A DNA stretch of 64,000 bases from a phage, in the NCBI GenBank assembly GCA_029742005.1, contig GCA_029742005.1_4113.1. One strand, written 5' to 3'. Numbering within the stretch: position 1 is the stretch's first letter; every line of letters begins with the position of its first letter. This document shows positions 26,869 to 63,571 of this stretch, in pieces. The position numbers were made by a program, and so were the translations under genes. Below the pieces are notes generated by a model. That model was not told where the DNA came from and searched no databases. It was given only the letters and a program-made list of their open reading frames with translations.

Positions 26869-27506
26869 TTAAACACAAGTAGACAGGGGAAGCTCCTAGT
26901 GAACAACCTTTATGTACAGGCGAATTGTTAAAATTCAGCCTGGACAAATGCGATCACTAGGATTCTCCCCAGGCTAAACCCCGTAATCATAGGTAGTCAT
27001 AAGTAATCATATATAAACATTTATATGAGCACCGTAGAATCACAGAATGATTATATATGATTCAGTACTGATTAGTATAGACAAGATTGCTCAAGAATGC
27101 ACGGAAATGTGTGTGAATGATTCAGTACTGATATCCCACTAAGTAGGCAGAGGAAGTCTGCCGTACTTTTTAGTTTCCAAGCTCCTTTTCCATTTTTCAA
27201 ATTACATCAAATGTAATCAAAAGTAATCACGCAATGATTAGTACTGAATTATTACTTTCACCTTAATTTCAATGACCCCTTTACCCTTCGGGGTAAAATT
27301 CCATTACCCCTTGAGGCTCCAGCAAAAAGTTGGTTAGTACTCCATCCTAAATCTCGATCCTAAAAATTTTGGAGTACCTATGAAATAAAAGTTGGATCTT
27401 CGAAAGTTGAAATTTACGTTGGGACGTTTATGATTTGTGGGATATAATGATGTTTGTAGTCGGGTAGTTCTCAAGAATATCAGTACTGAATAATGAAAGA
27501 AAGCTA

Positions 27507-27534
27507 TTGACATTATGATTCAGTACTGTATAAT
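27507..27534 (+). promoter_or_regulatory. promoter TTGACA-16-TATAAT in non-coding region
   Basis: Consensus hexamers; no protein ORF downstream. Confidence 0.5.
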
Positions 27535-27540
27535 GTTCTA

Positions 27541-27655
27541 CATAGCTTCAAGGGGTGATGAGTTGCTGCGAACAATTCATTTACTCTACCTCCTGTCGTG
27601 AGACAGTACAGAAAAGATAGTTCCTCCTGTGGTGGTACATCTTTTTGAACCTCAT
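27541..27655 (+). ncRNA. candidate small non-coding transcript
   Basis: Promoter upstream, no credible ORF, T-run near 27650. Confidence 0.25.
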
Positions 27656-27726
27656 ATGAAAATCGTAATAACAGTACTGATATTAACAGAATGGTGTCAG
27701 TACTGATTTTAATCTAAAGCATTATG

Positions 27727-27746
27727 CCACCAGCACAAGCTGGTGG
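27727..27746 (+). repeat. inverted Chi octamers forming hairpin CCACCAGC-ACAA-GCTGGTGG
   Basis: Perfect 8-bp inverted repeat whose arms are the E. coli Chi octamer and its complement. Confidence 0.6.
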
Positions 27747-27889
27747 ATTCCCTCTAACAGTATTCAGTACTACATGATAGTCTTCATCCTCCTAGGGTAA
27801 CATAGTGAGGGCTATGATGGCAGTACTGAATACTCCCTTTCAAAAGATAGATCTATGGTATAGTACTGACGGATTTTGGGCGTAGTTAC

Positions 27890-28060
27890 CCTGGATGGAT
27901 TTTGGACGTAGATATGTCTAGCCCTCCAGAAGTCTGGAAGTAAAGATGGCTATCCATCTAGACGGCTAAACGGCTAGATTTCTGGATGGCTGGATGGCTA
28001 GACGTTTGGACGGCTAAACGGCTAGATGGTTACACGTCTGGAAGTATAGACGGCTAAATC
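27890..28060. repeat. iteron-like direct repeat cluster
   Basis: GACGGCTAAACGGCTAGAT at 27961 and 28009, partial at 28049; TCTGGAAGTA twice; palindrome AGATGGCTATCCATCT. Confidence 0.6.
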
Positions 28061-28816
28061 AAAATTTTATTTTGTTTTTTCCAATAGTTCCCCTACCGCG
28101 TGGGGATAGTTTCCCCGCAGTATCTGGAGTTAGATTTTTCTGAATCTGGAATCATTATCTTATAAACTGGGGGCAATGTCAACCGCCTGGACGGATATTT
28201 TTAAAAATTTTTTCAGTACTGAATTTTGGGCGTAACTATGCACCCGGTGGGCTATAGTCTTTCTCGACTTGATGGAACTATTATACAGTACTGAAAAAAT
28301 AAAGCAATACCCTGGAAGCAAAAAAGTTTTAATTAATTTGCTTGCCATCCTGGGCCGTACTATGGTACTATATTTCAGTACTGAGAAAGTGCGTTTACCT
28401 GCTAGGGTGCGGGAGTGTATCCTTTTTTTATATCTTGAATTTTGGGCGTAATTCCGCACCCTCTGGGGTTTCCGCTTTCTCGCGTCTATGTAGTAATTAT
28501 ACGCTTTTTCAGGATCAAGTCAATACCTAAAAACAAAATAATTGAAAATAATTTAACGCGTTTAAACGGCCCGTAACGCCCTGGAATGATTGGAATGGTG
28601 CAAATGTATAGCTTAGGTGTATTAATGCGTTAGAATGCGTCTGAGGCCGTTTTACGGGGTATGGGGATGATTTAGTGGATTGATTCAGTACTGAATGATA
28701 GTACTACTATATAGAAAGATAGTTCCCCTGGATGGTTGCAGTACTGAATGATAGTACTGAATAATAGTTCCCCTATATAGAAAGAAAACTATTTTAAAAG
28801 TATTTGTAGAAAGTAC

Positions 28817-45561: not shown

Positions 45562-45759
45562 ATGCGTATTTTAACTGAAGAAGAGCACAACCACACACTC
45601 ATATCCAACATGGCATATATCCTACATATGTCACATATCCGTGGTATTGCATATAAGCGTGAATTGGTTATGAAACTTTTCATAGGAACTAACTATCAAG
45701 AAAAGTATATCGAACTATACTTACAAGAATTACGAAGGGACATAAAAGGAAGACGATGA
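45562..45759 (+). CDS. small protein, LGTNYQ-motif family C
   Basis: RBS AAAGGAG; ..FIGTNYQEKY.. Confidence 0.55.
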   Translation: MRILTEEEHNHTLISNMAYILHMSHIRGIAYKRELVMKLFIGTNYQEKYIELYLQELRRDIKGRR

Positions 45760-45956
45760 AAATGCGTATTTTAAATAAAGAAGATTATCAAGAACTGTTA
45801 TGTAAAAACATGGTAAAGATTTATAACACAGACACAAACTTAGAACGAATTGAGTTATACCTTTTGATTACATTGGGAACAAGCTATCAGAGAAGATGGG
45901 TGATTCAATATATGGATGCATTGAAAAATGAAATATTGTCCACGAGGAAACAATGA
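45756..45956 (+). CDS. small protein, family C
   Basis: ATGA overlap; ..LGTSYQRR.. Confidence 0.5.
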   Translation: MKMRILNKEDYQELLCKNMVKIYNTDTNLERIELYLLITLGTSYQRRWVIQYMDALKNEILSTRKQ

Positions 45957-46162
45957 AAACTATAACACGAACCCAATCATACGGTCTTATCTTGAGATAC
46001 ATGGACTTAATGTTGGATATCAGCAAAGACCTTCCTAAAACTGCAATTGAAGTTACAAGAGCAGAGATCCGCATGTTGGCTGTACTGAACACAAACCATC
46101 AGGAAGAGTATGTTGATGATTGGATTAATTTTTTAATTCAAGATATAAAGAGTAAACTATGA
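45953..46162 (+). CDS. small protein, family C
   Basis: ATGA overlap; ..LNTNHQEEY.. Confidence 0.5.
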   Translation: MKTITRTQSYGLILRYMDLMLDISKDLPKTAIEVTRAEIRMLAVLNTNHQEEYVDDWINFLIQDIKSKL

Positions 46163-46371
46163 TTTTTTTAACACCAGAAGAATATAAGATACGTTTTGTT
46201 TCTGTCCAGAATAAAATCTTAATTATATACAATTCAAATGCAGACCTTAACTTATCAAGGGTATTAGAAAAAGATTTACTTATGGGTGCATTTTTGGATA
46301 CAGACTTTCAGGAGTATTATGTAGGGGAATACTTAATTGCACTCAAGAATTATATTAAGAGTAAACTATGA
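46159..46371 (+). CDS. small protein, family C
   Basis: ATGA overlap; ..LDTDFQEYY.. Confidence 0.5.
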   Translation: MIFLTPEEYKIRFVSVQNKILIIYNSNADLNLSRVLEKDLLMGAFLDTDFQEYYVGEYLIALKNYIKSKL

Positions 46372-46583
46372 ATATCATTGCAAACTCAAATCAATATACC
46401 GAACGCGTCGCTGCAAGACAACTTGAAATTCTCATAGTATACGAAGAGACTTCTGATTTAAACTTAGCCGAGGTATTGGAAAATGATATACTATTGGGTG
46501 CATTCCTCGGCACAGACTATCAGGAGCACTTCTTGAATGAGTATATAATTGCACTCCAGAAATACATTAAGAGCAAACTATGA
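46368..46583 (+). CDS. small protein, family C
   Basis: ATGA overlap; ..LGTDYQEHF.. Confidence 0.5.
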   Translation: MNIIANSNQYTERVAARQLEILIVYEETSDLNLAEVLENDILLGAFLGTDYQEHFLNEYIIALQKYIKSKL

Positions 46584-46816
46584 AACATTTAAGTAACTCC
46601 GAGAAGAATAAAATTATCGTTGCTGCAATAAACAAATATTTTACACTTCCTCACACAGAAGGTTTATGTGTAAGAGAACACAGGATAAACACCACCGATA
46701 TACGCATGATGGCTGTACTGGGGACTAACTTTCAGAAGGAGTATGTTGATGCACACATTACCGCACTGATGAACTTTATAATGGGAAAGGTAAATGAAAC
46801 ACTTAACACTAGATGA
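46580..46816 (+). CDS. small protein, family C
   Basis: ATGA overlap; ..LGTNFQKEY.. Confidence 0.5.
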   Translation: MKHLSNSEKNKIIVAAINKYFTLPHTEGLCVREHRINTTDIRMMAVLGTNFQKEYVDAHITALMNFIMGKVNETLNTR

Positions 46817-47051
46817 ATATGAAACTATAGTCCGTAAACTAACCCCTATAGCAAGGATAGTCTACGATGACCCCAGCCTTACATGGAACCAAATGCGAGC
46901 TAAAGTTAATGAGCTATGGTTGCTGTACTTTATGGGAACGCAATATCAAGATAAGTTTTGCACAGAATATGTCGAACAATTAATGAATGTTATACAGGAT
47001 AAACTAGATGATTATTGGCTCGCAAAACATGAAGACTTTATCAGGAGTTGA
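46794..47051 (+). CDS. small protein, family C
   Basis: ..MGTQYQDKF.. Confidence 0.5.
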   Translation: MKHLTLDEYETIVRKLTPIARIVYDDPSLTWNQMRAKVNELWLLYFMGTQYQDKFCTEYVEQLMNVIQDKLDDYWLAKHEDFIRS

Positions 47052-47280
47052 GTATCAAACTGCCCTATTCTCTTTAATCCATACCCTTAGAAAAAACAAT
47101 GCCTTACATGGTGCACCTGAAGTGGATGTTATCAACGGTGAACTTTATCTGATGAAATTCATTGGAACAAACTATCAAGATCTGTTCATTCAACGATACC
47201 TATCAGCATTAAGAAACCAAATCCAATATAAAACCATCAAGGCCAAAAAAGAATGGAATAAACAATGCGACACAGACTAA
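47029..47280 (+). CDS. small protein, family C
   Basis: ..IGTNYQDLF..; start uncertain. Confidence 0.45.
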   Translation: MKTLSGVEYQTALFSLIHTLRKNNALHGAPEVDVINGELYLMKFIGTNYQDLFIQRYLSALRNQIQYKTIKAKKEWNKQCDTD

Positions 47281-47516
47281 ATCACAAAATGTATTGTAAA
47301 CTATTGCAGACACTGGCACAGAAACACTATGACACGGTATCTGAAATATTACCCTATGATATCATGCGTTTACTTCACTGTGAGGCCGAGATGCTTGTAC
47401 TGATGACAGGCACAGATAAAAAAGCAATTGCCAAATCAATAGATATGTTCATCGAAGCACAATGTCAACACATTAGAACCGAGATATGGAGGCGAGAGAA
47501 TGATAACCCTAAATGA
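47265..47516 (+). CDS. small protein, family C (divergent)
   Basis: ..MTGTDKKAI.. Confidence 0.45.
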   Translation: MRHRLNHKMYCKLLQTLAQKHYDTVSEILPYDIMRLLHCEAEMLVLMTGTDKKAIAKSIDMFIEAQCQHIRTEIWRRENDNPK

Positions 47517-47715
47517 GTATCAGTATCATTGGAGGTTACAAGCTATAAGAAGGAAAGTTGTTAGTATTTCTTTAGACAAGTCTATTGCACAAGAGGACAA
47601 ATGTGTTATAATAGCTGAAATGAAGTTGGGTGTTTTCGTAGGGACAAACTATCAAAACATCTACACTGACGTATTGTTAAGTGTCTTACGTAACAAGGTG
47701 ATATCAAAAGAATGA
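47500..47715 (+). CDS. small protein, family C
   Basis: ..VGTNYQNIY.. Confidence 0.5.
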   Translation: MITLNEYQYHWRLQAIRRKVVSISLDKSIAQEDKCVIIAEMKLGVFVGTNYQNIYTDVLLSVLRNKVISKE

Positions 47716-47930
47716 GAAAATTACAAGGCTTTGAATACATCAGGCTCCTGAAAACATGTGGCAGCAGAAGGAGAATGATATCAAGCGATAAGAGCATCTC
47801 TATTGACCTGAAGCACGCAATGAAAGCTGAACTCTATGTATGAGCACTATTGGGGACAAACTATCAACAAATGTATGTAGACCTATGGATTGATGCATTA
47901 GTCAAGGAGGTCCAAAGTAAATGCAAATGA
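47712..47930 (+). pseudogene. family C member interrupted by in-frame TGA at 47841-47843
   Basis: ATGA overlap start; 43 codons, TGA, then ALLGTNYQQMYVDLWIDALVKEVQSKCK in the same frame. Confidence 0.5.
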
Positions 47931-48139
47931 TTAATTTAAGTAAAGATGAATTTTATGTTCTACTGGCGAAAACTTATTCATTACGCAAGGCCGTTTATGA
48001 TAGTCACATTATTGAACCAACAAAGAAGTTGATTTTAGTATCTGAGATAAAGATGCTTTCAGTCTTAGGAACAAACTACCAAGAGAATGCTGTACTGTTG
48101 TTAATTGATGCCCTCAAGAGAGAGATACAAAGTAAATGA
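47927..48139 (+). CDS. small protein, family C
   Basis: ATGA overlap; ..LGTNYQENA.. Confidence 0.5.
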   Translation: MINLSKDEFYVLLAKTYSLRKAVYDSHIIEPTKKLILVSEIKMLSVLGTNYQENAVLLLIDALKREIQSK

Positions 48140-48375
48140 TTCATTTATCTTACCATGATTATCAAAAACGTTTAAATGCATCAAGGGATATAAGAATTCA
48201 AATCTTCAATAACAAAAAATTGAAACCTGACACCAGAAGAATCAAAATAATCGAAGCAGAGTTATGCAACTTCCTGGGGACGAACTATCAGGCAGGTAAG
48301 GTAAAAAACTATCTTAGAGAACTCATGAATTGTATCGAAAATAAATGCGATGCTTTGGAGGATAAAAATGATTAA
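48136..48375 (+). CDS. small protein, family C
   Basis: ATGA overlap; ..LGTNYQAGK.. Confidence 0.5.
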   Translation: MIHLSYHDYQKRLNASRDIRIQIFNNKKLKPDTRRIKIIEAELCNFLGTNYQAGKVKNYLRELMNCIENKCDALEDKND

Positions 48376-48625
48376 TTTAAATTCTGATGAATATCATGAA
48401 CGCATGGCTAAAATCTCAACTAAACGAAATGAAATCTATCACAACCCAGAAATTCAACACAGTAAGAAAATGATTATGATGCGTGAGTTAAAGTTGGGTG
48501 TATTCTTAGGAACAAACTATCAAGAACCAGAGGTCCAACGCGTATTAAATGAATTACTAATGGAAATCAGAGGTAAGCTTTACTTTCATCAAATGACCCA
48601 ACCACTGAGGTGTACTGTGAAATGA
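48368..48625 (+). CDS. small protein, family C
   Basis: RBS GGAGGA; ..LGTNYQEPE.. Confidence 0.5.
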   Translation: MINLNSDEYHERMAKISTKRNEIYHNPEIQHSKKMIMMRELKLGVFLGTNYQEPEVQRVLNELLMEIRGKLYFHQMTQPLRCTVK

Positions 48626-48837
48626 TCAACATCACATTACAAGAAAGATTCATCCGAATCAACTATGCAATTTCCAAATTAGATGCTACAATAGGATTTC
48701 AAAGTCTACCGTTCAAAACCAGAATGATATTAGAGTGCGAAGCCAGGTTAGGTGTACTGTTAGGGACGCAACACCAACAACGATATGTGGAAATCTGGAT
48801 TGATCTTTTAACCCAAAATGCACATGAGAGAATGTAA
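48622..48837 (+). CDS. small protein, family C
   Basis: ..LGTQHQQRY.. Confidence 0.5.
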   Translation: MINITLQERFIRINYAISKLDATIGFQSLPFKTRMILECEARLGVLLGTQHQQRYVEIWIDLLTQNAHERM

Positions 48838-49068
48838 ATGCAAAATGAAATGATATACTTAACACATGATGAATTTCAAGAGAAGATGTTAAAAGCCAAT
48901 AACATTACTCTTAAGTTCGTTCCAAATCAATCAATATATGAAATGTCTGCGAATGTATTGTTTGAGAAGCTACCATACGTTCTTGGAACTGATAAACAAG
49001 AATTTATGGTTCAAAATATGATTGAGCATCTTGCAATGAGTATTATGGAAAAAGTAAATGCAAAATGA
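48838..49068 (+). CDS. small protein, family C (divergent)
   Basis: ..LGTDKQEFM..; start may be 48850. Confidence 0.45.
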   Translation: MQNEMIYLTHDEFQEKMLKANNITLKFVPNQSIYEMSANVLFEKLPYVLGTDKQEFMVQNMIEHLAMSIMEKVNAK

Positions 49069-49318
49069 AATGAAATACTTAACATATAATGAATACGTCG
49101 AGAGATTAGTTAGTGCCAAGAGATATGCCAATCAACTTCCTAATGATCCAAACCAAACCCCAGAGGAAAAGAATGCGGAAGCTCTATTCCAAGCACTACC
49201 ATACCTTCTTGGAACTGATAGGCAGGAGTATCACGTTGAACGTATAATTAAATCTCTTAAAATCACTATTAAGGAAAAAGTAAATGCAAAAGGAAATGAT
49301 ATACTTAACAGACGATGA
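49058..49318 (+). CDS. small protein, family C (divergent)
   Basis: ..LGTDRQEYH..; start may be 49070. Confidence 0.45.
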   Translation: MQNEMKYLTYNEYVERLVSAKRYANQLPNDPNQTPEEKNAEALFQALPYLLGTDRQEYHVERIIKSLKITIKEKVNAKGNDILNRR

Positions 49319-49541
49319 GTTAAAAGAACGATTAATTAAATCCAGAAAACTTACAAATCAACTTCCAAACGACACAAACAAGTCACCTGCCGAAAGGAGT
49401 GCAGAAGTTTTATACATTCAACTCATGTACTTTCTTGGAACTGACAGACAAGAGTATTACATTGAAAGTATGCTTCGATATCTTAAATTCTCTATAAAGG
49501 AAAAGATACATGCTCAAGAATTTAAAAATCCTAACAGCTAA
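49284..49541 (+). CDS. small protein, family C (divergent)
   Basis: ..LGTDRQEYY..; start may be 49296. Confidence 0.45.
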   Translation: MQKEMIYLTDDELKERLIKSRKLTNQLPNDTNKSPAERSAEVLYIQLMYFLGTDRQEYYIESMLRYLKFSIKEKIHAQEFKNPNS

Positions 49542-49767
49542 TGAATATCATAAGATTGTAATGGAAACTAATAGTGCTTACGCTAAAAAATCAAACCCAA
49601 AGTATATACTGGAACACACATTTGAAGAACGTCAATTAGCTCTAGTTGAAGCAAAACTTCTTGCACTATTAGGAACAAACTATCAGGAAGAATACAATAG
49701 AAAACTAATATACCTTTTAACTAAACACATCAGGAAAAGAAAAAAGCATGAAACACTTGACAGATGA
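49510..49767 (+). CDS. small protein, family C
   Basis: ..LGTNYQEEY.. Confidence 0.5.
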   Translation: MLKNLKILTANEYHKIVMETNSAYAKKSNPKYILEHTFEERQLALVEAKLLALLGTNYQEEYNRKLIYLLTKHIRKRKKHETLDR

Positions 49768-49978
49768 TGAACATGGGCTTATAGTAATGGATGTAATCAA
49801 CATCGAATTCAAAAAGTTGATACGCTACCGTTGTTATGAAGATAAGCAACTCGTTCTAGCAGAACAGAAGTTGTTTCGACTCTTAAACACAAACTACCAA
49901 GCACAATACGAAGAATCGTATATGTACCTTTTGGCGAGGAAAGCAAAAAGAGATTATGAAAATTTTAAGCCACGATAA
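49748..49978 (+). CDS. small protein, family C
   Basis: ..LNTNYQAQY.. Confidence 0.5.
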   Translation: MKHLTDDEHGLIVMDVINIEFKKLIRYRCYEDKQLVLAEQKLFRLLNTNYQAQYEESYMYLLARKAKRDYENFKPR

Positions 49979-50171
49979 ACAAACAGAATTGTTAATCTTT
50001 AATACAAGTAAATTCTTAAACATAACATTGTCTGATATAGATGAGGATGAAAAAGAGTTACTTAGAGCAGATTTAAGAGTTCTTTTATATATTGGAACTA
50101 ACTTCCAAGAGCAATTCGTTGAGGACTACATCGATGAACTTAAAGAATCTGTACTGAGAACATGCAAATGA
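49956..50171 (+). CDS. small protein, family C
   Basis: ..IGTNFQEQF.. Confidence 0.5.
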   Translation: MKILSHDKQTELLIFNTSKFLNITLSDIDEDEKELLRADLRVLLYIGTNFQEQFVEDYIDELKESVLRTCK

Positions 50172-50413
50172 AAATCCTTTCACCAAGTGAATACCACGAA
50201 CTATTAAGTAGTTTAATTCTAAAATTGTATATAGCAAAGACCACAGATTTACCAGATGAAGAAAAAAATATTCTAATGAGTGAAATCTATGTTAATTCTA
50301 CCCTAGGGACTAACTATCAAGAATGTAATATTAATGATTACATCAAAGAACTAAAAAGGTTTATCCAATGCAAATGCGAATCATTACCGGAGAAGAATAC
50401 CGAACAATCATAA
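50168..50413 (+). CDS. small protein, family C
   Basis: ATGA overlap; ..LGTNYQECN..; 3' end runs into next gene. Confidence 0.5.
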   Translation: MKILSPSEYHELLSSLILKLYIAKTTDLPDEEKNILMSEIYVNSTLGTNYQECNINDYIKELKRFIQCKCESLPEKNTEQS

Positions 50414-50610
50414 ATGGACTGTTTTTGAAGTTATTTGCCATTAACACATCAAAACTACCAGATACGGATAAAATTATTAAGTTAAATGAAATCTACGTTC
50501 AAGCTACTCTAGGAACTAACTATCAAGAAGCCAATGTGTATAATTACATTAATACACTTAAAAGGGTAATACAATTAAAATGCACAGACAGCACATACAC
50601 AAACCCCTAG
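50374..50610 (+). CDS. small protein, family C
   Basis: ..LGTNYQEAN..; near-duplicate of 50168. Confidence 0.5.
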   Translation: MRIITGEEYRTIINGLFLKLFAINTSKLPDTDKIIKLNEIYVQATLGTNYQEANVYNYINTLKRVIQLKCTDSTYTNP

Positions 50611-50810
50611 GAACAGCAGAATACATTGAACTAATGGCAGCAAACTTCTCATCCTTTCAGAAACTGATGCAAGAATCAAATAATGATTTAGAATATCATA
50701 TCAAAAGTTCAGATTTAAGATTGTTACTCACTCTAGGAACAGACAGTCAGTACAAATTCGTACAGGAGCATATTAGAGCACTTTTAAATGGCATCAGGAA
50801 TAAACTATGA
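50580..50810 (+). CDS. small protein, family C (divergent)
   Basis: ..LGTDSQYKF.. Confidence 0.45.
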   Translation: MHRQHIHKPLGTAEYIELMAANFSSFQKLMQESNNDLEYHIKSSDLRLLLTLGTDSQYKFVQEHIRALLNGIRNKL

Positions 50811-51022
50811 AGGTAATATCAAACCAAGAGTACTTGGCACTATTCAGAAAAAATAGTCAAGAATTTCTGAATCTTGATACAAGAACTGATATAAGTGAAC
50901 TTGAAAAAAATCTTTTGCGTTCAGAGATGATAGTACTGACACTCTTAGGAACACAGCACCAAGAGAGAACTGTTAATTCACACATAGGGATTCTTATACA
51001 GATAGTACAGGAAAAGATATGA
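50807..51022 (+). CDS. small protein, family C (divergent)
   Basis: ATGA overlap; ..LGTQHQERT.. Confidence 0.5.
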   Translation: MKVISNQEYLALFRKNSQEFLNLDTRTDISELEKNLLRSEMIVLTLLGTQHQERTVNSHIGILIQIVQEKI

Positions 51023-51240
51023 GAATCATAACACAACAAGATATTCTTAAGTTCACAAGGGTTCATGCATCTGAATTTGATGCTATATTATCAAAAAGTT
51101 ACAACAACCCTTATACAGAAGATGTACACTACAGTGAATTATGGGTGTATATACTTTTAGGTACAGATCATCAAGAGCAAGCAGTACAGAAGTATTTGTT
51201 AGCGTTAAGTACTGCTACTGCTAATGGAGTATGTGTTTAA
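51019..51240 (+). CDS. small protein, family C (divergent)
   Basis: ATGA overlap; ..LGTDHQEQA.. Confidence 0.5.
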   Translation: MRIITQQDILKFTRVHASEFDAILSKSYNNPYTEDVHYSELWVYILLGTDHQEQAVQKYLLALSTATANGVCV

Positions 51241-51241
51241 T

Positions 51242-51484
51242 ATGAAAGTACTGACAGAATTAGAAATGTATCATAGATTTAATAAGTACTATCATTTACT
51301 TAAACCTATACAGAGGATTAAGTGTCCCTTTGTAGTGAAACAGGTATTAATTTATGAGCATAAGTTATTTGTATCATTAGGTACGAATGAACAAGAGTAT
51401 TATTTGAAGTTGTACTTAATTACTTTAATTGAATTGATTAATTACAAAACTCAGAAAGCGAAGAAATCTAAAAATGAAAACTAA
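51242..51484 (+). CDS. small protein, family C (divergent)
   Basis: RBS GGAG; ..LGTNEQEYY.. Confidence 0.5.
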   Translation: MKVLTELEMYHRFNKYYHLLKPIQRIKCPFVVKQVLIYEHKLFVSLGTNEQEYYLKLYLITLIELINYKTQKAKKSKNEN

Positions 51485-51815
51485 AATTCAACTCAGGGTA
51501 TACATATCGTATGAAAATATATACGTTAAAAGTAGTCTATGTAAAGATGTAATGGACTACAAAGGTAAACCATTCACAGTTACTTACAGTTTAACAGGAG
51601 GTTTATATATCTCTTTTGCTAATTACGAAAATAATATGTACGAACACATTGACATTGAAGATTTAAGTACTTTATCACCAGAGGAATACTTCCAGGAATC
51701 ATTAGTATGGGATTTAGAGTTCCCTATGCCATTAGTACATAAGATGATAGTACTAATGAAAGAATCTAAACAGGAGCCTAATAGTGCTTATGAAGAACAC
51801 ATTATTGAGTATTAA
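51474..51815 (+). CDS. FQ-motif family D protein inside family C array
   Basis: ..SPEEYFQESLVWDLEF.. Confidence 0.5.
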   Translation: MKTKIQLRVYISYENIYVKSSLCKDVMDYKGKPFTVTYSLTGGLYISFANYENNMYEHIDIEDLSTLSPEEYFQESLVWDLEFPMPLVHKMIVLMKESKQEPNSAYEEHIIEY

Positions 51816-51827
51816 GAGTACTGATAT

Positions 51828-52043
51828 ATGAAAAGATTATCATACAAAGATTACAGTAAACTTATCAGTACTTTACAACCAGAAATTAGAAGAATTAATT
51901 ATCTTCCTATATCTAACGAAGAACGTGTAGTACTGAAAAATGAGTTAATCTTAAAACGCACAGTAGGTACTAACTATCAAGATAATAGTGTTCGCGATTT
52001 AATTAGAGGGTTAATGATCACAATAAAGGCCAAGTGCTATTGA
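51828..52043 (+). CDS. small protein, family C
   Basis: ..VGTNYQDNS.. Confidence 0.5.
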   Translation: MKRLSYKDYSKLISTLQPEIRRINYLPISNEERVVLKNELILKRTVGTNYQDNSVRDLIRGLMITIKAKCY

Positions 52044-52107
52044 CAGTACTTGACGGAGCTTTTCATTACTGATATAGTGCATCAACGTTAATCATAGGGT
52101 ACAGATT

Positions 52108-52353
52108 ATGTTAAAATTTTTAAATTTCCTTATCGTCTTGTGTATTGTTCTTGGAATTGCACCGTTTGTATTAGCGTATCTGGATTCAGATGAAATGCAG
52201 AAGATGAATTGCACAAAGACAGGACAGAGTAGAGAAGAGACGGTTATGATGCCTGTAACGGTTATTGTGAATAACATACCAATTACGAACATGATTCCTA
52301 CCCTAACGACAACGTACCAGTACTCTTGTGCTGACGGAGAGAGGTGGAGATGA
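52108..52353 (+). CDS. small membrane protein
   Basis: Hydrophobic N-terminus; RBS ATAGGG weak. Confidence 0.45.
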   Translation: MLKFLNFLIVLCIVLGIAPFVLAYLDSDEMQKMNCTKTGQSREETVMMPVTVIVNNIPITNMIPTLTTTYQYSCADGERWR

Positions 52354-52661
52354 AATTTAATATAGCAAAAACATCGAGTATATGTATTTTTGGTTATTCC
52401 TATGAATTGGGTGATATTGACATTCTATTGTACAAAACGAATGGTGTTATGCATTTCAAGTACCAGGATGAAGAGGCAGACAATTATCTTTTACCTAATT
52501 TAGTACAAATGCAGGAAGAGGAATTATTCCAGTACAGCTTAATATACGACATTGATATTTGCACGATGCCAGTATTAATTAGTATTCAAAAAGTGATGCT
52601 CGATATGTATGATAAGCTAATACAAGGTATGTCAGGGAGGATCATTGAAATCGATATATAA
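52344..52661 (+). CDS. FQ-motif family D protein
   Basis: ..QEEELFQYSLIYDIDI.. Confidence 0.5.
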   Translation: MEMKFNIAKTSSICIFGYSYELGDIDILLYKTNGVMHFKYQDEEADNYLLPNLVQMQEEELFQYSLIYDIDICTMPVLISIQKVMLDMYDKLIQGMSGRIIEIDI

Positions 52662-52857
52662 GAATTTACCTAATGAATATTTGTTGAAGTACAAAGAGTT
52701 TATTAAAGATGTATATGTAGATCCTTTTAATATCAAATTTGCAGAGTTCGAAGTATCATTTTATCTAGGGACAATAGTACAGGACCAATACGTTGATAAT
52801 CTAATAAGGTGTTTGAAAAAGGAGATACAATGCAGACCCAAATGTACAAAAAAATAA
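52645..52857 (+). CDS. small protein, family C (divergent)
   Basis: ..LGTIVQDQY.. Confidence 0.45.
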   Translation: MKSIYKNLPNEYLLKYKEFIKDVYVDPFNIKFAEFEVSFYLGTIVQDQYVDNLIRCLKKEIQCRPKCTKK

Positions 52858-53093
52858 ACTGTTATTTGTATGCATCAAAGTACAGGGATTTTTGTTTACG
52901 AGGGGGAGAGGAAGATTTTGCTCTGAGATTATCGGAATTTAATATGTTATTTTATCTTGGTACATCAGTACAAGAAGAAATGGTACAGAAATTTATCAAT
53001 CACCTTGTACAAAAAATTAATATGCAAATTTTGATGCTTGAGTTACAGAATGAGATAAACAAATATGAACCCAACAATAGTACAGGATCTTAA
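52830..53093 (+). CDS. small protein, family C (divergent)
   Basis: RBS AGGAGA; ..LGTSVQEEM.. Confidence 0.45.
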   Translation: MQTQMYKKINCYLYASKYRDFCLRGGEEDFALRLSEFNMLFYLGTSVQEEMVQKFINHLVQKINMQILMLELQNEINKYEPNNSTGS

Positions 53094-55521: not shown

Positions 55522-55895
55522 AGTTTAGTTTAGATGCTGCCTTTAAATTTGTTCACAAGATAGAAACAATATACAGTACATTATGTGCAATACAATCAGT
55601 ATCATCTGAGTTTGATGTTGGTGAAAAATATCAGGTATGGAATAATACATTTCTAAACAAAGAACGTTGCTCTACGGGGTTTAATATTTTAACATTTAAT
55701 CCCAGCAATTGTTACCCAGAGAAGCATGAACGTTATCCGAATGACGACATGTGGTTTGATTACACAAAAGATGGTGATATGTCATCCCTTGTAGTTCCTG
55801 ATGATTTTAATGCCGAAGATTTAACGGAAGAGTGGTGGTTTCAACAGAATTTAGTTCACGATGATATTGATTTATTTTTTTTATGTAGTATTTAA
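55500..55895 (+). CDS. FQ-motif family D protein
   Basis: ..LTEEWWFQQNLVHDDIDL.. Confidence 0.5.
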   Translation: MQYMYDLEFSLDAAFKFVHKIETIYSTLCAIQSVSSEFDVGEKYQVWNNTFLNKERCSTGFNILTFNPSNCYPEKHERYPNDDMWFDYTKDGDMSSLVVPDDFNAEDLTEEWWFQQNLVHDDIDLFFLCSI

Positions 55896-60147: not shown

Positions 60148-60525
60148 ATGGAAATAAAATATAATGAATTTTGTGCAAGGACATGGATGTACACTGGTGA
60201 GTTAGTTACGCACTCTAACTTATACAAGGGTGATTTAAACTACGCTAGGGACAAGATTTTAAAGTACTGGAATGCTGACTTTTATTTGATGGATTTTAGT
60301 ACTGGGTTTAGGGGTAAAGCAACCGAGATGTTGGACTATACAGTACTTGATGATGCTGCACTGTTTCAGGAGGCATTAGTATTTGATAAGAAGTACATCT
60401 GTACATTAGAAGAGATGATTGAATTACAGCGTAGAATTAAATGTATTCACAGGGAATGTATAGATATCTGGTGCAGTACTGGTGAAGTTGATTTTTGTAA
60501 TCATTTCAATCTAGGGGAAGTGTGA
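60148..60525 (+). CDS. FQ-motif family D protein (LFQEALVFDKKYICT subgroup)
   Basis: ..DDAALFQEALVFDKKYICTLEEMIELQ.. Confidence 0.5.
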   Translation: MEIKYNEFCARTWMYTGELVTHSNLYKGDLNYARDKILKYWNADFYLMDFSTGFRGKATEMLDYTVLDDAALFQEALVFDKKYICTLEEMIELQRRIKCIHRECIDIWCSTGEVDFCNHFNLGEV

Positions 60526-60881
60526 TGGAATTTGATTTTTTAATATCAGTACATTCTTTTAAGCACAGTTTTCAGTACTTTTGTAATTTAAACAAAGGTG
60601 ATTTAATGCACAGTGCGAATGAGTATATTCATTTTACTGATGGTAAATTCTCATTTATTGATTACAGTTCATTAGATTTTCCATACACTGATATGCCGGA
60701 CTATACATTGATGGATGCTGGTGAACTATTTCAAGCTGCATTAGTATTTGACAAGAAGTACATCTGTACATTTGAAGAAGTAATTACTATACAAAATGAA
60801 ATGAAGGTGTATGCATCGTTGAATAAACCTAATGAATGTATTAATCAAGAATACAAATTCAATATAGGAATTCCAAAATGA
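60522..60881 (+). CDS. FQ-motif family D protein (same subgroup)
   Basis: ATGA overlap; ..DAGELFQAALVFDKKYICTFEEVITIQ.. Confidence 0.55.
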   Translation: MMEFDFLISVHSFKHSFQYFCNLNKGDLMHSANEYIHFTDGKFSFIDYSSLDFPYTDMPDYTLMDAGELFQAALVFDKKYICTFEEVITIQNEMKVYASLNKPNECINQEYKFNIGIPK

Positions 60882-61237
60882 CATATGATTATTCTATGTA
60901 CTATTATAAGTTACCTAAAGGATGGGACTTGTGCTGTAATCTTATTAAGGGAGACTCGGAACATGAGTTGAGTTTATATATGCACTACAAAGATTCTTGT
61001 TTTAAATTTATTCATGTATTACATGATGGCTATGACTATGAATCTGAGAGTCTTATAGATTATACAGTACTGGACGATGGTGAACTATTTCAGGAAGCAT
61101 TAGTGTTTGATAAGAATAAGTACTCCTGTACATTTGAAGAAATGGTTTCTTTGCAAAATGAAATGAAGAGATTTGAAAAAGAAAACGTATTTAATCCATC
61201 CCCATCAAGAACGAATAATTATTATTTCAATATATGA
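60878..61237 (+). CDS. FQ-motif family D protein (same subgroup)
   Basis: ATGA overlap; ..DDGELFQEALVFDKNKYSCTFEEMVSLQ.. Confidence 0.55.
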   Translation: MTYDYSMYYYKLPKGWDLCCNLIKGDSEHELSLYMHYKDSCFKFIHVLHDGYDYESESLIDYTVLDDGELFQEALVFDKNKYSCTFEEMVSLQNEMKRFEKENVFNPSPSRTNNYYFNI

Positions 61238-61246
61238 GATTATAAA

Positions 61247-61741
61247 ATGACATTACAGAGTTCATTGGAAAAAGCAAAGAAGATTCATGAGTACATGAAT
61301 ATGGCAAAAGAAGGTTCAGTTTACGGTGTTTTCAAAGACACAAGTACTCAATATTATGTGCCAGATAACCTCCTTTATAATGACTGCTCAGATACAGAAA
61401 CGTGCGTACTGGATACAGAAACGTGCATACTAGATACCGACCCTAATGATTATGAATGTTTCATTGATATGCATAATGAGTACATGGTCTATATTAATGA
61501 TGCAGATATTACCATATACAGTACTGACTGCGATTCCGATGACATTATAATTCCGAGTGAAGTACTAGAAGGTCAGTGGGATAGTGAAGAGTATTACTTC
61601 CAACAAAGTACTGTTTACGATGATGAAGTACTTGAAGTATTAGTTATTATGTGGTACTTTAAAAGTATTGGTTCTGGGAACTTCTATTTCGATTACAGAT
61701 ACGTAACGAAAACTGTAGATAACGGTATTAACAGGGGTTGA
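61247..61741 (+). CDS. FQ-motif family D protein (EEYYFQ/WYFK subgroup)
   Basis: RBS GAGATT; ..WDSEEYYFQQSTVYDDEVLEVLVIMWYFKSI.. Confidence 0.55.
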   Translation: MTLQSSLEKAKKIHEYMNMAKEGSVYGVFKDTSTQYYVPDNLLYNDCSDTETCVLDTETCILDTDPNDYECFIDMHNEYMVYINDADITIYSTDCDSDDIIIPSEVLEGQWDSEEYYFQQSTVYDDEVLEVLVIMWYFKSIGSGNFYFDYRYVTKTVDNGINRG

Positions 61742-61742
61742 A

Positions 61743-62213
61743 ATGAGTTTAGAAAGAGCATTAGAGATTGCGAAGTTAATTGATTTATGCAGCAAAGAAA
61801 TTGTATCAAATTGTCTCAATGGATATCTATTCAAGGAAGGTAAATCATATTGTCGAATGATATACGATGACAGTAGTGAATATATCCATATGTATGAAGA
61901 AAACTTAGATGATTCTGACATAGTACTCACAGGATGTGATGTTAATTTGGAAGATAATTACATGTACTTCTGCCGTGATGCTGATATTTTAATCCAAGAT
62001 TCATTAATTCAAACAGGTGCACCAGAGGTATATCTTCCGTATTCAGTACTGGATAATAACTGGGGTAGTGAAGATTACTATTTCCAGCAGAGTACTATAT
62101 ATAATGAAGATATACTTGACAAACTTGTTATTTCGTGGTACTTTCATAACACGGATTATAGTAGCTTCTACATAGACTTGGATCTACTAAGAGTACTTAA
62201 AGAGGATATATGA
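61743..62213 (+). CDS. FQ-motif family D protein (same subgroup)
   Basis: ..WGSEDYYFQQSTIYNEDILDKLVISWYFH.. Confidence 0.55.
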   Translation: MSLERALEIAKLIDLCSKEIVSNCLNGYLFKEGKSYCRMIYDDSSEYIHMYEENLDDSDIVLTGCDVNLEDNYMYFCRDADILIQDSLIQTGAPEVYLPYSVLDNNWGSEDYYFQQSTIYNEDILDKLVISWYFHNTDYSSFYIDLDLLRVLKEDI

Positions 62214-62650
62214 GTTTAGAAAGAGCACTAGAACTAGCCAACAAAATACATCAGTACTACGATAAAATAAAAAGTGGGTTCTATGGTGATAAAGTACATG
62301 CATATGGGAATGAATATTACCTCACAGGAGTAAAGAGATACTCTAATGATATTTTACTTATGGGTCATGATAAAGACTATACTATACAGTACTCTTCATG
62401 TAGTCAATATACTAGTTTTATGGTATATATTCCTGGTACTAAGATTACTTTTGACACATCAAATACACCTGTTGACTTTGAAGTGTTGGAAGGACCGTGG
62501 GGTACTGAAGAATATTACTTCCAACAGAGTCTCATTTTTAACCAAGAAATGCTTGATTCCTTGGTTGTGTTGTGGTACTTTAAGGAATTGAATTTTGAAC
62601 CATTCTTTCTTGACTGGGGATCATGTGAGTATTTAATTTCAGGGGAATAA
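62210..62650 (+). CDS. FQ-motif family D protein (same subgroup)
   Basis: ATGA overlap; ..WGTEEYYFQQSLIFNQEMLDSLVVLWYFK.. Confidence 0.55.
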   Translation: MSLERALELANKIHQYYDKIKSGFYGDKVHAYGNEYYLTGVKRYSNDILLMGHDKDYTIQYSSCSQYTSFMVYIPGTKITFDTSNTPVDFEVLEGPWGTEEYYFQQSLIFNQEMLDSLVVLWYFKELNFEPFFLDWGSCEYLISGE

Positions 62651-62652
62651 TA

Positions 62653-63141
62653 ATGTCATTACAAAGTGCATTGAAAGAAGCAAAGAAAATTCATGAGTTC
62701 ATGATTATGGTACAGGAAGGTTCAGTACCAGGTGTATACAAAACATCAGATACGGAATTCTTCGTTAAGGATAGAGATGATTATGACGATTCAGAGGTAT
62801 GTGCAGAAACATTAGTACTGCACACTGATACTGGTGACAGTGATAACTGTGAATATCATATGTACAATCAGTACATTAGTTATTGCCGTAATGAAGATAT
62901 TACCATCTACAACACAGATAGTGATGCTGATGACACTATCATTCCTTATTCAGTACTGGAAGGTCCGTGGGATAGTGAAGAATATTACTTCCAGAATAGT
63001 ACTATCTACAATGAAGAAGAACTGGATGTTATTGTGATTATGTGGTATTTCAAAAGTATTGACTCCAGTAGTTTCTATTTTGATTATGAATATGTAGAGA
63101 ATACAGTAGGAGAAGGTAATGTCATTACAAAGTGCTCTTGA
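62653..63141 (+). CDS. FQ-motif family D protein (same subgroup)
   Basis: ..WDSEEYYFQNSTIYNEEELDVIVIMWYFKSI.. Confidence 0.55.
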   Translation: MSLQSALKEAKKIHEFMIMVQEGSVPGVYKTSDTEFFVKDRDDYDDSEVCAETLVLHTDTGDSDNCEYHMYNQYISYCRNEDITIYNTDSDADDTIIPYSVLEGPWDSEEYYFQNSTIYNEEELDVIVIMWYFKSIDSSSFYFDYEYVENTVGEGNVITKCS

Positions 63142-63571
63142 AAAAGCAAAAGAACTACATGGATACTTTGAAGATATAAAGGCCGGAAAGTTCAAAGAAG
63201 TGTACAAAGCCGAGAACGGTAACTACTACAAAGATGAAATGTATAATAACTCCGTTGGTGTAAGGGTTATTCTTGGGTTGAATTCCAATAGTCCTATATC
63301 GTTTTCTGAATACAATAGAGATGCAGAATTTATTAGTTATGTTGAAAATGGTAGCATTCGTTTTATTAATAGACAAAAACCATTAATTTTGAATTATGAA
63401 GTACTGGATGGACAGTGGAATAGTGAAGAGTATTACTTCCAAAACAGTACTGTATATGATGATGAAGTACTTGAAGCATTAGTTATTATGTGGTACTTCA
63501 AGAGTGTTAGCTGTCCTCGATTTTATTTGGATTTCGAAGATCTTCGTAAAGATCCAGAAGGTATAGAATGA
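63119..63571 (+). CDS. FQ-motif family D protein (same subgroup)
   Basis: ..WNSEEYYFQNSTVYDDEVLEALVIMWYFKSV.. Confidence 0.55.
   Translation: MSLQSALEKAKELHGYFEDIKAGKFKEVYKAENGNYYKDEMYNNSVGVRVILGLNSNSPISFSEYNRDAEFISYVENGSIRFINRQKPLILNYEVLDGQWNSEEYYFQNSTVYDDEVLEALVIMWYFKSVSCPRFYLDFEDLRKDPEGIE

What the first reader, a model, noticed from the sequence alone, without database searches (positions are those of the whole stretch)
47712..47930. In-frame TGA inside a conserved family C member
The member starting at 47712 has TGA at 47841-47843 after codon 43; the frame then continues as ALLGTNYQQMYVDLWIDALVKEVQSKCK with the family motif intact, to a stop at 47928-47930. Total length matches intact paralogs. 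Neighbouring genes use TGA as a true stop, so this is either a recent nonsense mutation or a site of stop-codon read-through or recoding.
Basis: seen in the sequence. Interest (0 to 1): 0.5.

Follow-up and report, generated by a model that had tools for sequence, protein, structure and literature searches.

The report
Strain-private nonsense SNP in phage paralog
One copy of a roughly 30-copy family of tiny genes in an E. coli jumbo phage carries a single G-to-T change that turns a glycine codon into a stop; near-identical phages have the intact gene, so this is an ordinary recent knockout mutation, not stop-codon recoding.

Summary
A 72-codon reading frame (47712-47930, + strand) of the "LGTNYQ" family (phrog_4148) is interrupted by TGA at 47841-47843, and the rest of the frame is intact. 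The window comes from an Asteriusvirus (PBECO4/121Q-like E. coli jumbo phage). Seven sequences from six near-identical genomes (97.5-99.98% identity nearby) carry this gene with one nucleotide difference: G instead of T at 47841, giving GGA (Gly). Another 21 more distant orthologs have GGT/GGG (Gly) or TTA (Leu), and none has a stop. The T allele recurs only in a separately built assembly of run SRR21990203, which is 100% identical to the window over 13.7 kb (same strain, probably the same reads). TGA is a normal stop here (45 of 141 ORFs; 16 of 25 array genes). The window has no tRNA or Rfam hit, and there is no significant RNA structure downstream. The intact gene is under purifying selection (dN/dS 0.30; 0.21 downstream of codon 44). 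The stop removes the invariant motif and the last helix of a confidently predicted four-helix domain. Verdict: a recent, strain-private nonsense mutation that inactivates one redundant paralog. Programmed read-through or recoding is not supported. Low interest.

The parts
47712..47843 (+). Truncated reading frame: 43 sense codons plus the premature TGA. It encodes helices 1-3 of the family fold only.
   Evidence: Fold model helices are H6-14, H17-25, H31-45 and H52-71.
47841..47841 (+). The causal SNP: T in the window, G in all near-identical relatives (GGA Gly to TGA stop).
   Evidence: it is the only difference in the 219-nt gene against L023-L028 and L030-L033. It is also the only difference in 4,216 bp against GCA_958319075.1 (L031).
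47841..47843 (+). Premature TGA stop (codon 44). The fourth base is G (TGAG), as at four genuine array gene ends.
47844..47930 (+). Orphaned 3' part of the gene: 28 codons (ALLGTNYQQ...SKCK) plus the original TGA stop. It encodes the invariant T49/Q52 motif loop and helix 4, and shows no further decay.
   Evidence: no private changes downstream; invariant T49, Q52, L63; dN/dS 0.21 in this part among orthologs.
47850..47930 (+). In-frame TTG-initiated 26-codon ORF just after the stop. It is a possible but unproven re-initiation product and has no Shine-Dalgarno sequence upstream.
   Evidence: One search lists the ORF. The absence of an SD is read from the sequence.
47695..47701 (+). Shine-Dalgarno-like AAGGTGA, 10 nt upstream of the focal ATG. 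That ATG overlaps the upstream gene's stop as ATGA.
   Evidence: Read directly.
47904..47911 (+). Strong Shine-Dalgarno AAGGAGGT for the next array gene (ATG at 47921). Because that gene has its own ribosome binding site, the premature stop need not be polar on it.
   Evidence: Read directly. The lack of a polar effect is an inference.
45562..52043 (+). Tandem array of about 28 head-to-tail paralogs of the same family (phrog_4148), mostly overlapping by ATGA. The focal gene is the 11th. Two weaker members follow at 52621-53093.

Best explanation
A single, evolutionarily very recent G-to-T transversion at 47841 changed GGA (Gly44) to TGA in one member of a roughly 30-copy tandem family of about 70-aa proteins of unknown function (phrog_4148) in an Asteriusvirus jumbo coliphage. 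Translation ends after 43 residues. The product lacks the invariant G-T-N-Y-Q loop and the C-terminal helix of a four-helix domain, so this paralog is most likely inactivated. The loss is probably tolerated because the phage carries 28 other intact paralogs. Shown here: the SNP, its polarity, its restriction to one strain, the normal use of TGA as a stop, and purifying selection on the intact gene. Inferred: loss of function, tolerance through redundancy, and no polar effect on the next gene because it has its own strong Shine-Dalgarno sequence. Any full-length protein would come only from the ordinary low-level leakiness of UGA in E. coli (near-cognate tRNA-Trp; established knowledge, not tested here), not from a programmed signal.
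For: (1) The intact allele exists. P0001 is identical to the Gly-repaired protein at all 72 residues. At the DNA level, GCA_005400705.1, DRR159911, ERR3531130, DRR569831, SRR11615244 and GCA_958319075.1 differ from the window gene only at 47841 (G, codon GGA). ERR3531130 is 99.95% identical over 13.9 kb. GCA_958319075.1 differs at only this base in 4,216 bp. (2) Of 22 GenBank Asteriusvirus orthologs, 21 are intact, with GGT/GGG (Gly) or TTA (Leu) at codon 44. The remaining one (CMSTMSU, an UNVERIFIED_ORG record) is frameshifted and reads GGG there. None has a stop at the codon. (3) The window gene has only two other private base changes and none downstream of the stop, so no decay has accumulated. 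(4) TGA is a genuine stop in this window: 45 of 141 ORFs and 16 of 25 array genes, which end at the family's aligned C-terminus. (5) There is no tRNA and no Rfam family in the window. Relatives are reported to encode only Ser, Met, Asn, Thr, Arg and Gly tRNAs (PMC13070987; PMC11895373). (6) The 81 nt around and after the stop fold no better than shuffles (z = -0.39). (7) Orthologs show dN/dS 0.30 overall and 0.21 downstream of codon 44. The fold model has pLDDT 97, with the stop at the end of helix 3. (8) The T is reproduced in the Logan assembly of SRR21990203, which is 100% identical to the window over 13,692 bp. (9) Other strains carry different broken members of the array (DRR569831: a Tyr-to-stop change and a frameshift in two other members; CMSTMSU frameshifts), which fits occasional loss of single copies.
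Against: The reads could not be inspected. SRR21990203 may be the very data set the window was assembled from, so the second assembly guards against an assembler or consensus artefact but not against a systematic read error or a mixed population. Loss of function is inferred from the model and conservation and was not measured. Codon 44 lies in a variable column (L, G, M, K, P, F, C, N, Q, Y among paralogs), so any read-through product with Trp there could well be functional.
Confidence: 0.87

Rival explanations
1. The T at 47841 is a base-call, consensus or population artefact. The phage actually carries GGA, or the T is a minority or laboratory-passage variant that was called as consensus.
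For: Every other near-identical genome has G. The only other sequence with T is 100% identical over 13.7 kb and so may come from the same reads. The exact 43-aa product is not on record as a called gene.
Against: Two assemblies from different pipelines agree on T. The site is not in a homopolymer (context TATGTATGAGCAC). The surrounding 13.7 kb shows no frameshifts or other disruptions, and all 28 other family members are intact.
Confidence: 0.09
2. Functional stop-codon read-through or recoding: the UGA is decoded at useful frequency (as Trp by near-cognate tRNA, as Sec, or by a phage suppressor), so a full-length protein is made as a regulated, low-dose isoform.
For: The downstream frame is perfectly intact. 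Codon 44 is a tolerant position. UGA is the leakiest stop in E. coli (established knowledge).
Against: The stop is not conserved in any sequenced ortholog. An intact downstream frame is simply what a very young mutation looks like. There is no stimulatory or SECIS-like structure, no Rfam hit and no tRNA in the window, and no suppressor tRNA is reported in two relatives. Orthologs have Gly or Leu, not Cys, at this site. TGAG also terminates four genuine array genes.
Confidence: 0.02
3. Split gene with termination-reinitiation: ribosomes that stop at 47843 restart at the in-frame TTG at 47850, so both a 43-aa and a 26-aa piece are made and may reassemble into a working domain.
For: An in-frame TTG lies 6 nt after the stop. 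Short-range re-initiation after premature stops is known in E. coli (established knowledge).
Against: There is no Shine-Dalgarno sequence before the TTG. No relative has this arrangement. The 26-aa piece would start inside the invariant motif loop, and there is no evidence that the fragments complement each other.
Confidence: 0.02

Closest known systems
Ordinary nonsense (opal) mutation producing a young pseudogene in a multi-copy phage gene family
   Same: A single-base change from a sense codon. It is private to one strain. The rest of the frame is undecayed. Intact paralogs and orthologs exist. Other strains show different broken copies.
   Different: Nothing notable. The only open point is that loss of function was not measured.
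Programmed UGA read-through, as at the end of the coat gene of RNA phage Q-beta (A1 protein)
   Same: A UGA followed by an open in-frame continuation in a phage that infects E. coli.
   Different: In Q-beta the stop and the extension are conserved and the read-through product is essential (established knowledge). Here the stop sits inside a domain, is absent from all orthologs and has no associated signal.
Bacterial selenocysteine recoding (UGA plus a downstream SECIS hairpin)
   Same: An in-frame UGA.
   Different: There is no hairpin beyond chance and no Rfam SECIS hit. Orthologs have Gly or Leu rather than Cys, and the protein is not a redox protein by any detectable homology.
Stop-codon reassignment in phages (TGA or TAG recoded genome-wide, with suppressor tRNAs)
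   Same: An in-frame stop in a large phage.
   Different: Only one gene is affected. TGA ends 32% of the window's ORFs, the standard code gives dense ORFs, and there is no suppressor tRNA in the window or reported in relatives.
phrog_4148, a family of small Asteriusvirus proteins of unknown function
   Same: The focal gene is a full-length member apart from the stop (E = 6e-21, profile positions 1-72 of 74).
   Different: It is the only member in this window that is interrupted.

Membership tests
phrog_4148 (small Asteriusvirus protein family with the LGTNYQ motif) | Significant full-length match to the family profile | tested here: met
   The repaired protein scores E = 6e-21 and 75 bits over residues 1-72 against profile positions 1-72 of 74. 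Five neighbours score 4e-10 to 3e-21.
phrog_4148 (small Asteriusvirus protein family with the LGTNYQ motif) | Invariant T and Q of the G-T-x-x-Q motif and the conserved L in the last helix | tested here: met
   T49, Q52 and L63 are invariant in 43 sequences and present in the focal frame downstream of the stop.
Young nonsense pseudogene | The stop arises by one base change from a sense codon found in the closest relatives | tested here: met
   GGA to TGA. It is the only difference in the gene against six near-identical genomes.
Young nonsense pseudogene | The stop is not shared by diverged orthologs | tested here: met
   None of 22 GenBank orthologs and none of six near-identical genomes has a stop at this codon. 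Only the same-strain assembly shares it.
Young nonsense pseudogene | The truncated product is non-functional | not testable with these tools
   Inferred from the loss of the invariant motif and helix 4 and from dN/dS of 0.21 in the lost part.
Programmed stop-codon read-through | The stop codon is conserved at the site across orthologs | tested here: not met
   Gly or Leu codons everywhere else.
Programmed stop-codon read-through | A stimulatory context or downstream RNA structure | tested here: not met
   MFE is -14.9 kcal/mol against a shuffle mean of -13.8 (z = -0.39). The fourth base is G, as at genuine stops in the array.
Programmed stop-codon read-through | Full-length product detected | not testable with these tools
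   This needs ribosome profiling or mass spectrometry.
Selenocysteine recoding | A SECIS hairpin just 3' of the UGA, with Cys in non-Sec orthologs | tested here: not met
   No significant structure, no Rfam hit, and orthologs have Gly or Leu.
Genome-wide TGA reassignment or suppressor-tRNA phage | Many in-frame TGAs and TGA rarely used as a terminator | tested here: not met
   TGA terminates 45 of 141 ORFs. All 28 other family members are uninterrupted in the standard code.
Genome-wide TGA reassignment or suppressor-tRNA phage | A phage-encoded suppressor tRNA (anticodon UCA) | tested here: inconclusive
   There is none in the 64-kb window. Two relatives are reported to have Ser, Met, Asn, Thr, Arg and Gly tRNAs only. 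The rest of this phage's genome was not available to scan.

The most novel reading that the evidence does not exclude
The nonsense allele was selected rather than being neutral. The phrog_4148 proteins may be early host-interaction factors, one of which is sensed by a host defence system. Knocking out that one paralog with an opal mutation would then let this strain escape on its propagation host, while residual UGA leakiness and 28 sister copies preserve the family's function. The evidence does not exclude this. The SNP is the strain's only private change in 4.2 kb. All six SNPs against ERR3531130 fall inside the array, and five of them change the protein. Other strains carry different knocked-out members.
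Probability: 0.04. Interest if true: 0.5.

Novelty: already known. Interest (0 to 1): 0.08.

Why it matters
It matters little in itself. It is a routine annotation point: the gene should be flagged as a pseudogene or disrupted copy in this strain, not as a recoding site, and the two short ORFs (43 aa and 26 aa) should not be annotated as separate genes. The useful by-product is context. The array is a large, fast-turning-over family of about 30 tandem small genes. It has a confidently predicted but unmatched four-helix fold, is restricted to Asteriusviruses, and its function is entirely unknown. Natural knockouts like this one mark individual copies as dispensable.

Full report
OBSERVATION. 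An ATG at 47712, which overlaps the upstream gene's stop as ATGA, opens a frame that encodes 43 residues. It meets TGA at 47841-47843 and then continues in the same frame as ALLGTNYQQMYVDLWIDALVKEVQSKCK to a TGA at 47928-47930. The combined 72 codons match the neighbouring paralogs in length and sequence. With Gly in place of the stop, the protein matches phrog_4148 (unknown function) end to end at E = 6e-21. It has no Pfam family.

CONTEXT. The window has 35% G+C and is 80-94% identical to PBECO4/121Q-like E. coli and Salmonella jumbo phages of 320-386 kb, genus Asteriusvirus. The focal gene is the 11th of about 28 head-to-tail paralogs on the + strand between 45562 and 52043, most joined by ATGA start/stop overlaps. 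An HMM built from the family finds 28 other members in the window, all uninterrupted. The focal gene is therefore the only broken copy. TGA is a normal terminator here. It ends 45 of 141 ORFs of at least 60 aa in the window and 16 of 25 array genes, four of them in the same TGAG context.

ORTHOLOGS. I fetched 22 GenBank orthologs. In 21 the gene is an intact 72-codon frame with GGT or GGG (Gly) at codon 44, or TTA (Leu) in the 121Q/A4/CRJP21 clade. CMSTMSU, an UNVERIFIED_ORG record, is frameshifted but also reads GGG there. None has a stop. The closest GenBank phage gene is only 90% identical, so these sequences alone could not tell how the TGA arose.

THE DECISIVE COMPARISON. A search of the large protein collection returned P0001, which is identical to the Gly-repaired protein at all 72 positions. 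Its encoding contigs, together with those of the neighbouring gene's product, gave six near-identical genomes: GCA_005400705.1 (a 345,910-bp contig filed in an E. coli assembly), DRR159911, ERR3531130, DRR569831, SRR11615244 and GCA_958319075.1. In every one, the 219-nt gene differs from the window at exactly one base: G instead of T at 47841, giving GGA. ERR3531130 is 99.95% identical to the window over 13.9 kb, with six SNPs and one homopolymer indel. GCA_958319075.1 differs at this base only in 4,216 bp. The stop is therefore a single G-to-T transversion from GGA (Gly), and T is clearly the derived state. Apart from this, the window gene has only two private base changes relative to all GenBank orthologs, and none downstream of the stop. 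The mutation is too young for any secondary decay, which fully explains why the 'family motif is intact'.

IS IT AN ERROR? One further contig, from the Logan assembly of run SRR21990203, carries the same T. It is 100.000% identical to the window over 13,692 bp. This is the same strain and quite possibly the same read set. It shows that a second assembly pipeline calls T, but it is not independent biological replication. The site is not in a homopolymer, and the surrounding region shows no other disruptions. I put an artefact or minority variant at about 9%.

IS IT RECODING? Each testable criterion fails. The stop is not conserved in any ortholog. The 81 nt from 47830 fold at -14.9 kcal/mol against -13.8 ± 2.9 for shuffles (z = -0.39). 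ARAGORN finds no tRNA and Rfam finds no family anywhere in the window. Published relatives are reported to carry only Ser, Met, Asn and Thr tRNAs (fEgEco12, PMC13070987), or those plus Arg and Gly (Sharanji, PMC11895373). Orthologs have Gly or Leu at the site, not Cys. TGA terminates a third of the window's genes, which rules out code reassignment. What remains is the ordinary background leakiness of UGA in E. coli (established knowledge, not measured here). Because codon 44 lies in a variable column (L, G, M, K, P, F, C, N, Q, Y among paralogs), a rare Trp-containing read-through product might even work. That would be incidental, not a mechanism.

CONSEQUENCE. Orthologs of the intact gene evolve under purifying selection: Nei-Gojobori dN/dS is 0.30 overall, 0.36 for codons 1-43 and 0.21 for codons 45-72. 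An AlphaFold2 model built on 43 orthologs and paralogs is very confident (pLDDT 97, pTM 0.82). It shows four helices: 6-14, 17-25, 31-45 and 52-71. The stop falls at the end of helix 3. The 43-aa product therefore lacks the loop with the invariant T49 and Q52, and the whole of helix 4 with the invariant L63. I infer that this copy is inactivated. The next gene (ATG at 47921) has its own strong AAGGAGGT ten bases upstream, so a polar effect is not expected; this too is an inference. An in-frame TTG at 47850 could in principle allow re-initiation of a 26-aa fragment, but it has no Shine-Dalgarno sequence and no precedent in relatives.

TURNOVER IN THE ARRAY. Other strains have other broken copies. 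In DRR569831 the ortholog of 46368-46583 has Tyr-to-stop inside its GTDYQ motif, and the ortholog of 47008-47280 has a 1-nt frameshift. This is a short Logan contig, so errors are possible. EC.P1, fEgEco12, WPEC3 and CMSTMSU have about 235 bp of extra sequence right after the focal gene. In EC.P1 it is annotated as one additional small CDS. This pattern of copy gain and loss fits a redundant family in which single knockouts are tolerated.

VERDICT. This is a real but ordinary feature: a recent, strain-private opal nonsense mutation in one redundant paralog. It is not a recoding site. Confidence is about 0.87. Interest is low.

Noticed in passing
window 3730-45201 and 60474-63452; densest at 27063-28746: The palindromic 8-mer CAGTACTG occurs 61 times against 0.83 expected (no shuffle exceeds 5). 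Twelve copies sit in the ORF-poor stretch at 27.0-28.8 kb. There are none at all between 45,202 and 60,473, which covers the whole phrog_4148 array and the genes after it. It may be a promoter, operator or other regulatory site that punctuates transcription units, with the array forming one long unit.
   Followed up: partly
window 26869-28159 (and on to about 28840): About 1.3 kb has no ORF of 60 aa or more in an otherwise dense genome. It holds an 8-nt-period array (GGATGGCT/AGACGGCT) at 27928-28055 and many inverted repeats built on TCAGTACTGA, and GC skew changes sign near 27 kb. It could be an origin, a genome terminus or a divergent control region. There is no Rfam hit.
   Followed up: partly
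window 45562-53093: A tandem array of about 30 paralogs of a roughly 70-aa protein (phrog_4148). It has a very confident four-helix model (pLDDT 97), no structural or sequence relative outside Asteriusviruses, and an invariant T..Q in a G-T-N-Y-Q loop. Its function is unknown.
   Followed up: partly
window 45801, 47634, 47638, 47841, 48104, 50115 versus L025: All six SNPs that separate the window from the 99.95%-identical ERR3531130 contig over 13.9 kb fall inside the 6.5-kb array (chance about 0.01). Five of the six change the protein. This hints that the array is the fastest-diversifying part of this region.
   Followed up: partly
L026 (DRR569831): orthologs of window 46368-46583 and 47008-47280: Two other family members are broken in this strain: a Tyr-to-stop change inside the GTDYQ motif and a 1-nt frameshift. 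These are either further natural knockouts or errors in a short, low-coverage contig.
   Followed up: no
L004 (EC.P1) 572-1025; also fEgEco12, WPEC3 and CMSTMSU (two-piece hits): These phages carry about 235 bp of extra sequence immediately after the focal gene's ortholog. In EC.P1 it is annotated as one additional small CDS, presumably another family member, which would mean copy-number variation in the array.
   Followed up: no
L034 2587-2841 (GCA_005400705.1); by alignment, roughly window 41.1-41.4 kb: An 84-aa gene with a ParE_like (PF24732) hit lies a few kb upstream of the array in relatives. A toxin-like domain in a lytic jumbo phage may be worth a look. The window coordinates were not verified.
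   Followed up: no
window 55867-55875: A T8 versus T7 homopolymer length difference between the window and ERR3531130. I did not check whether it lies in a coding frame.
   Followed up: no
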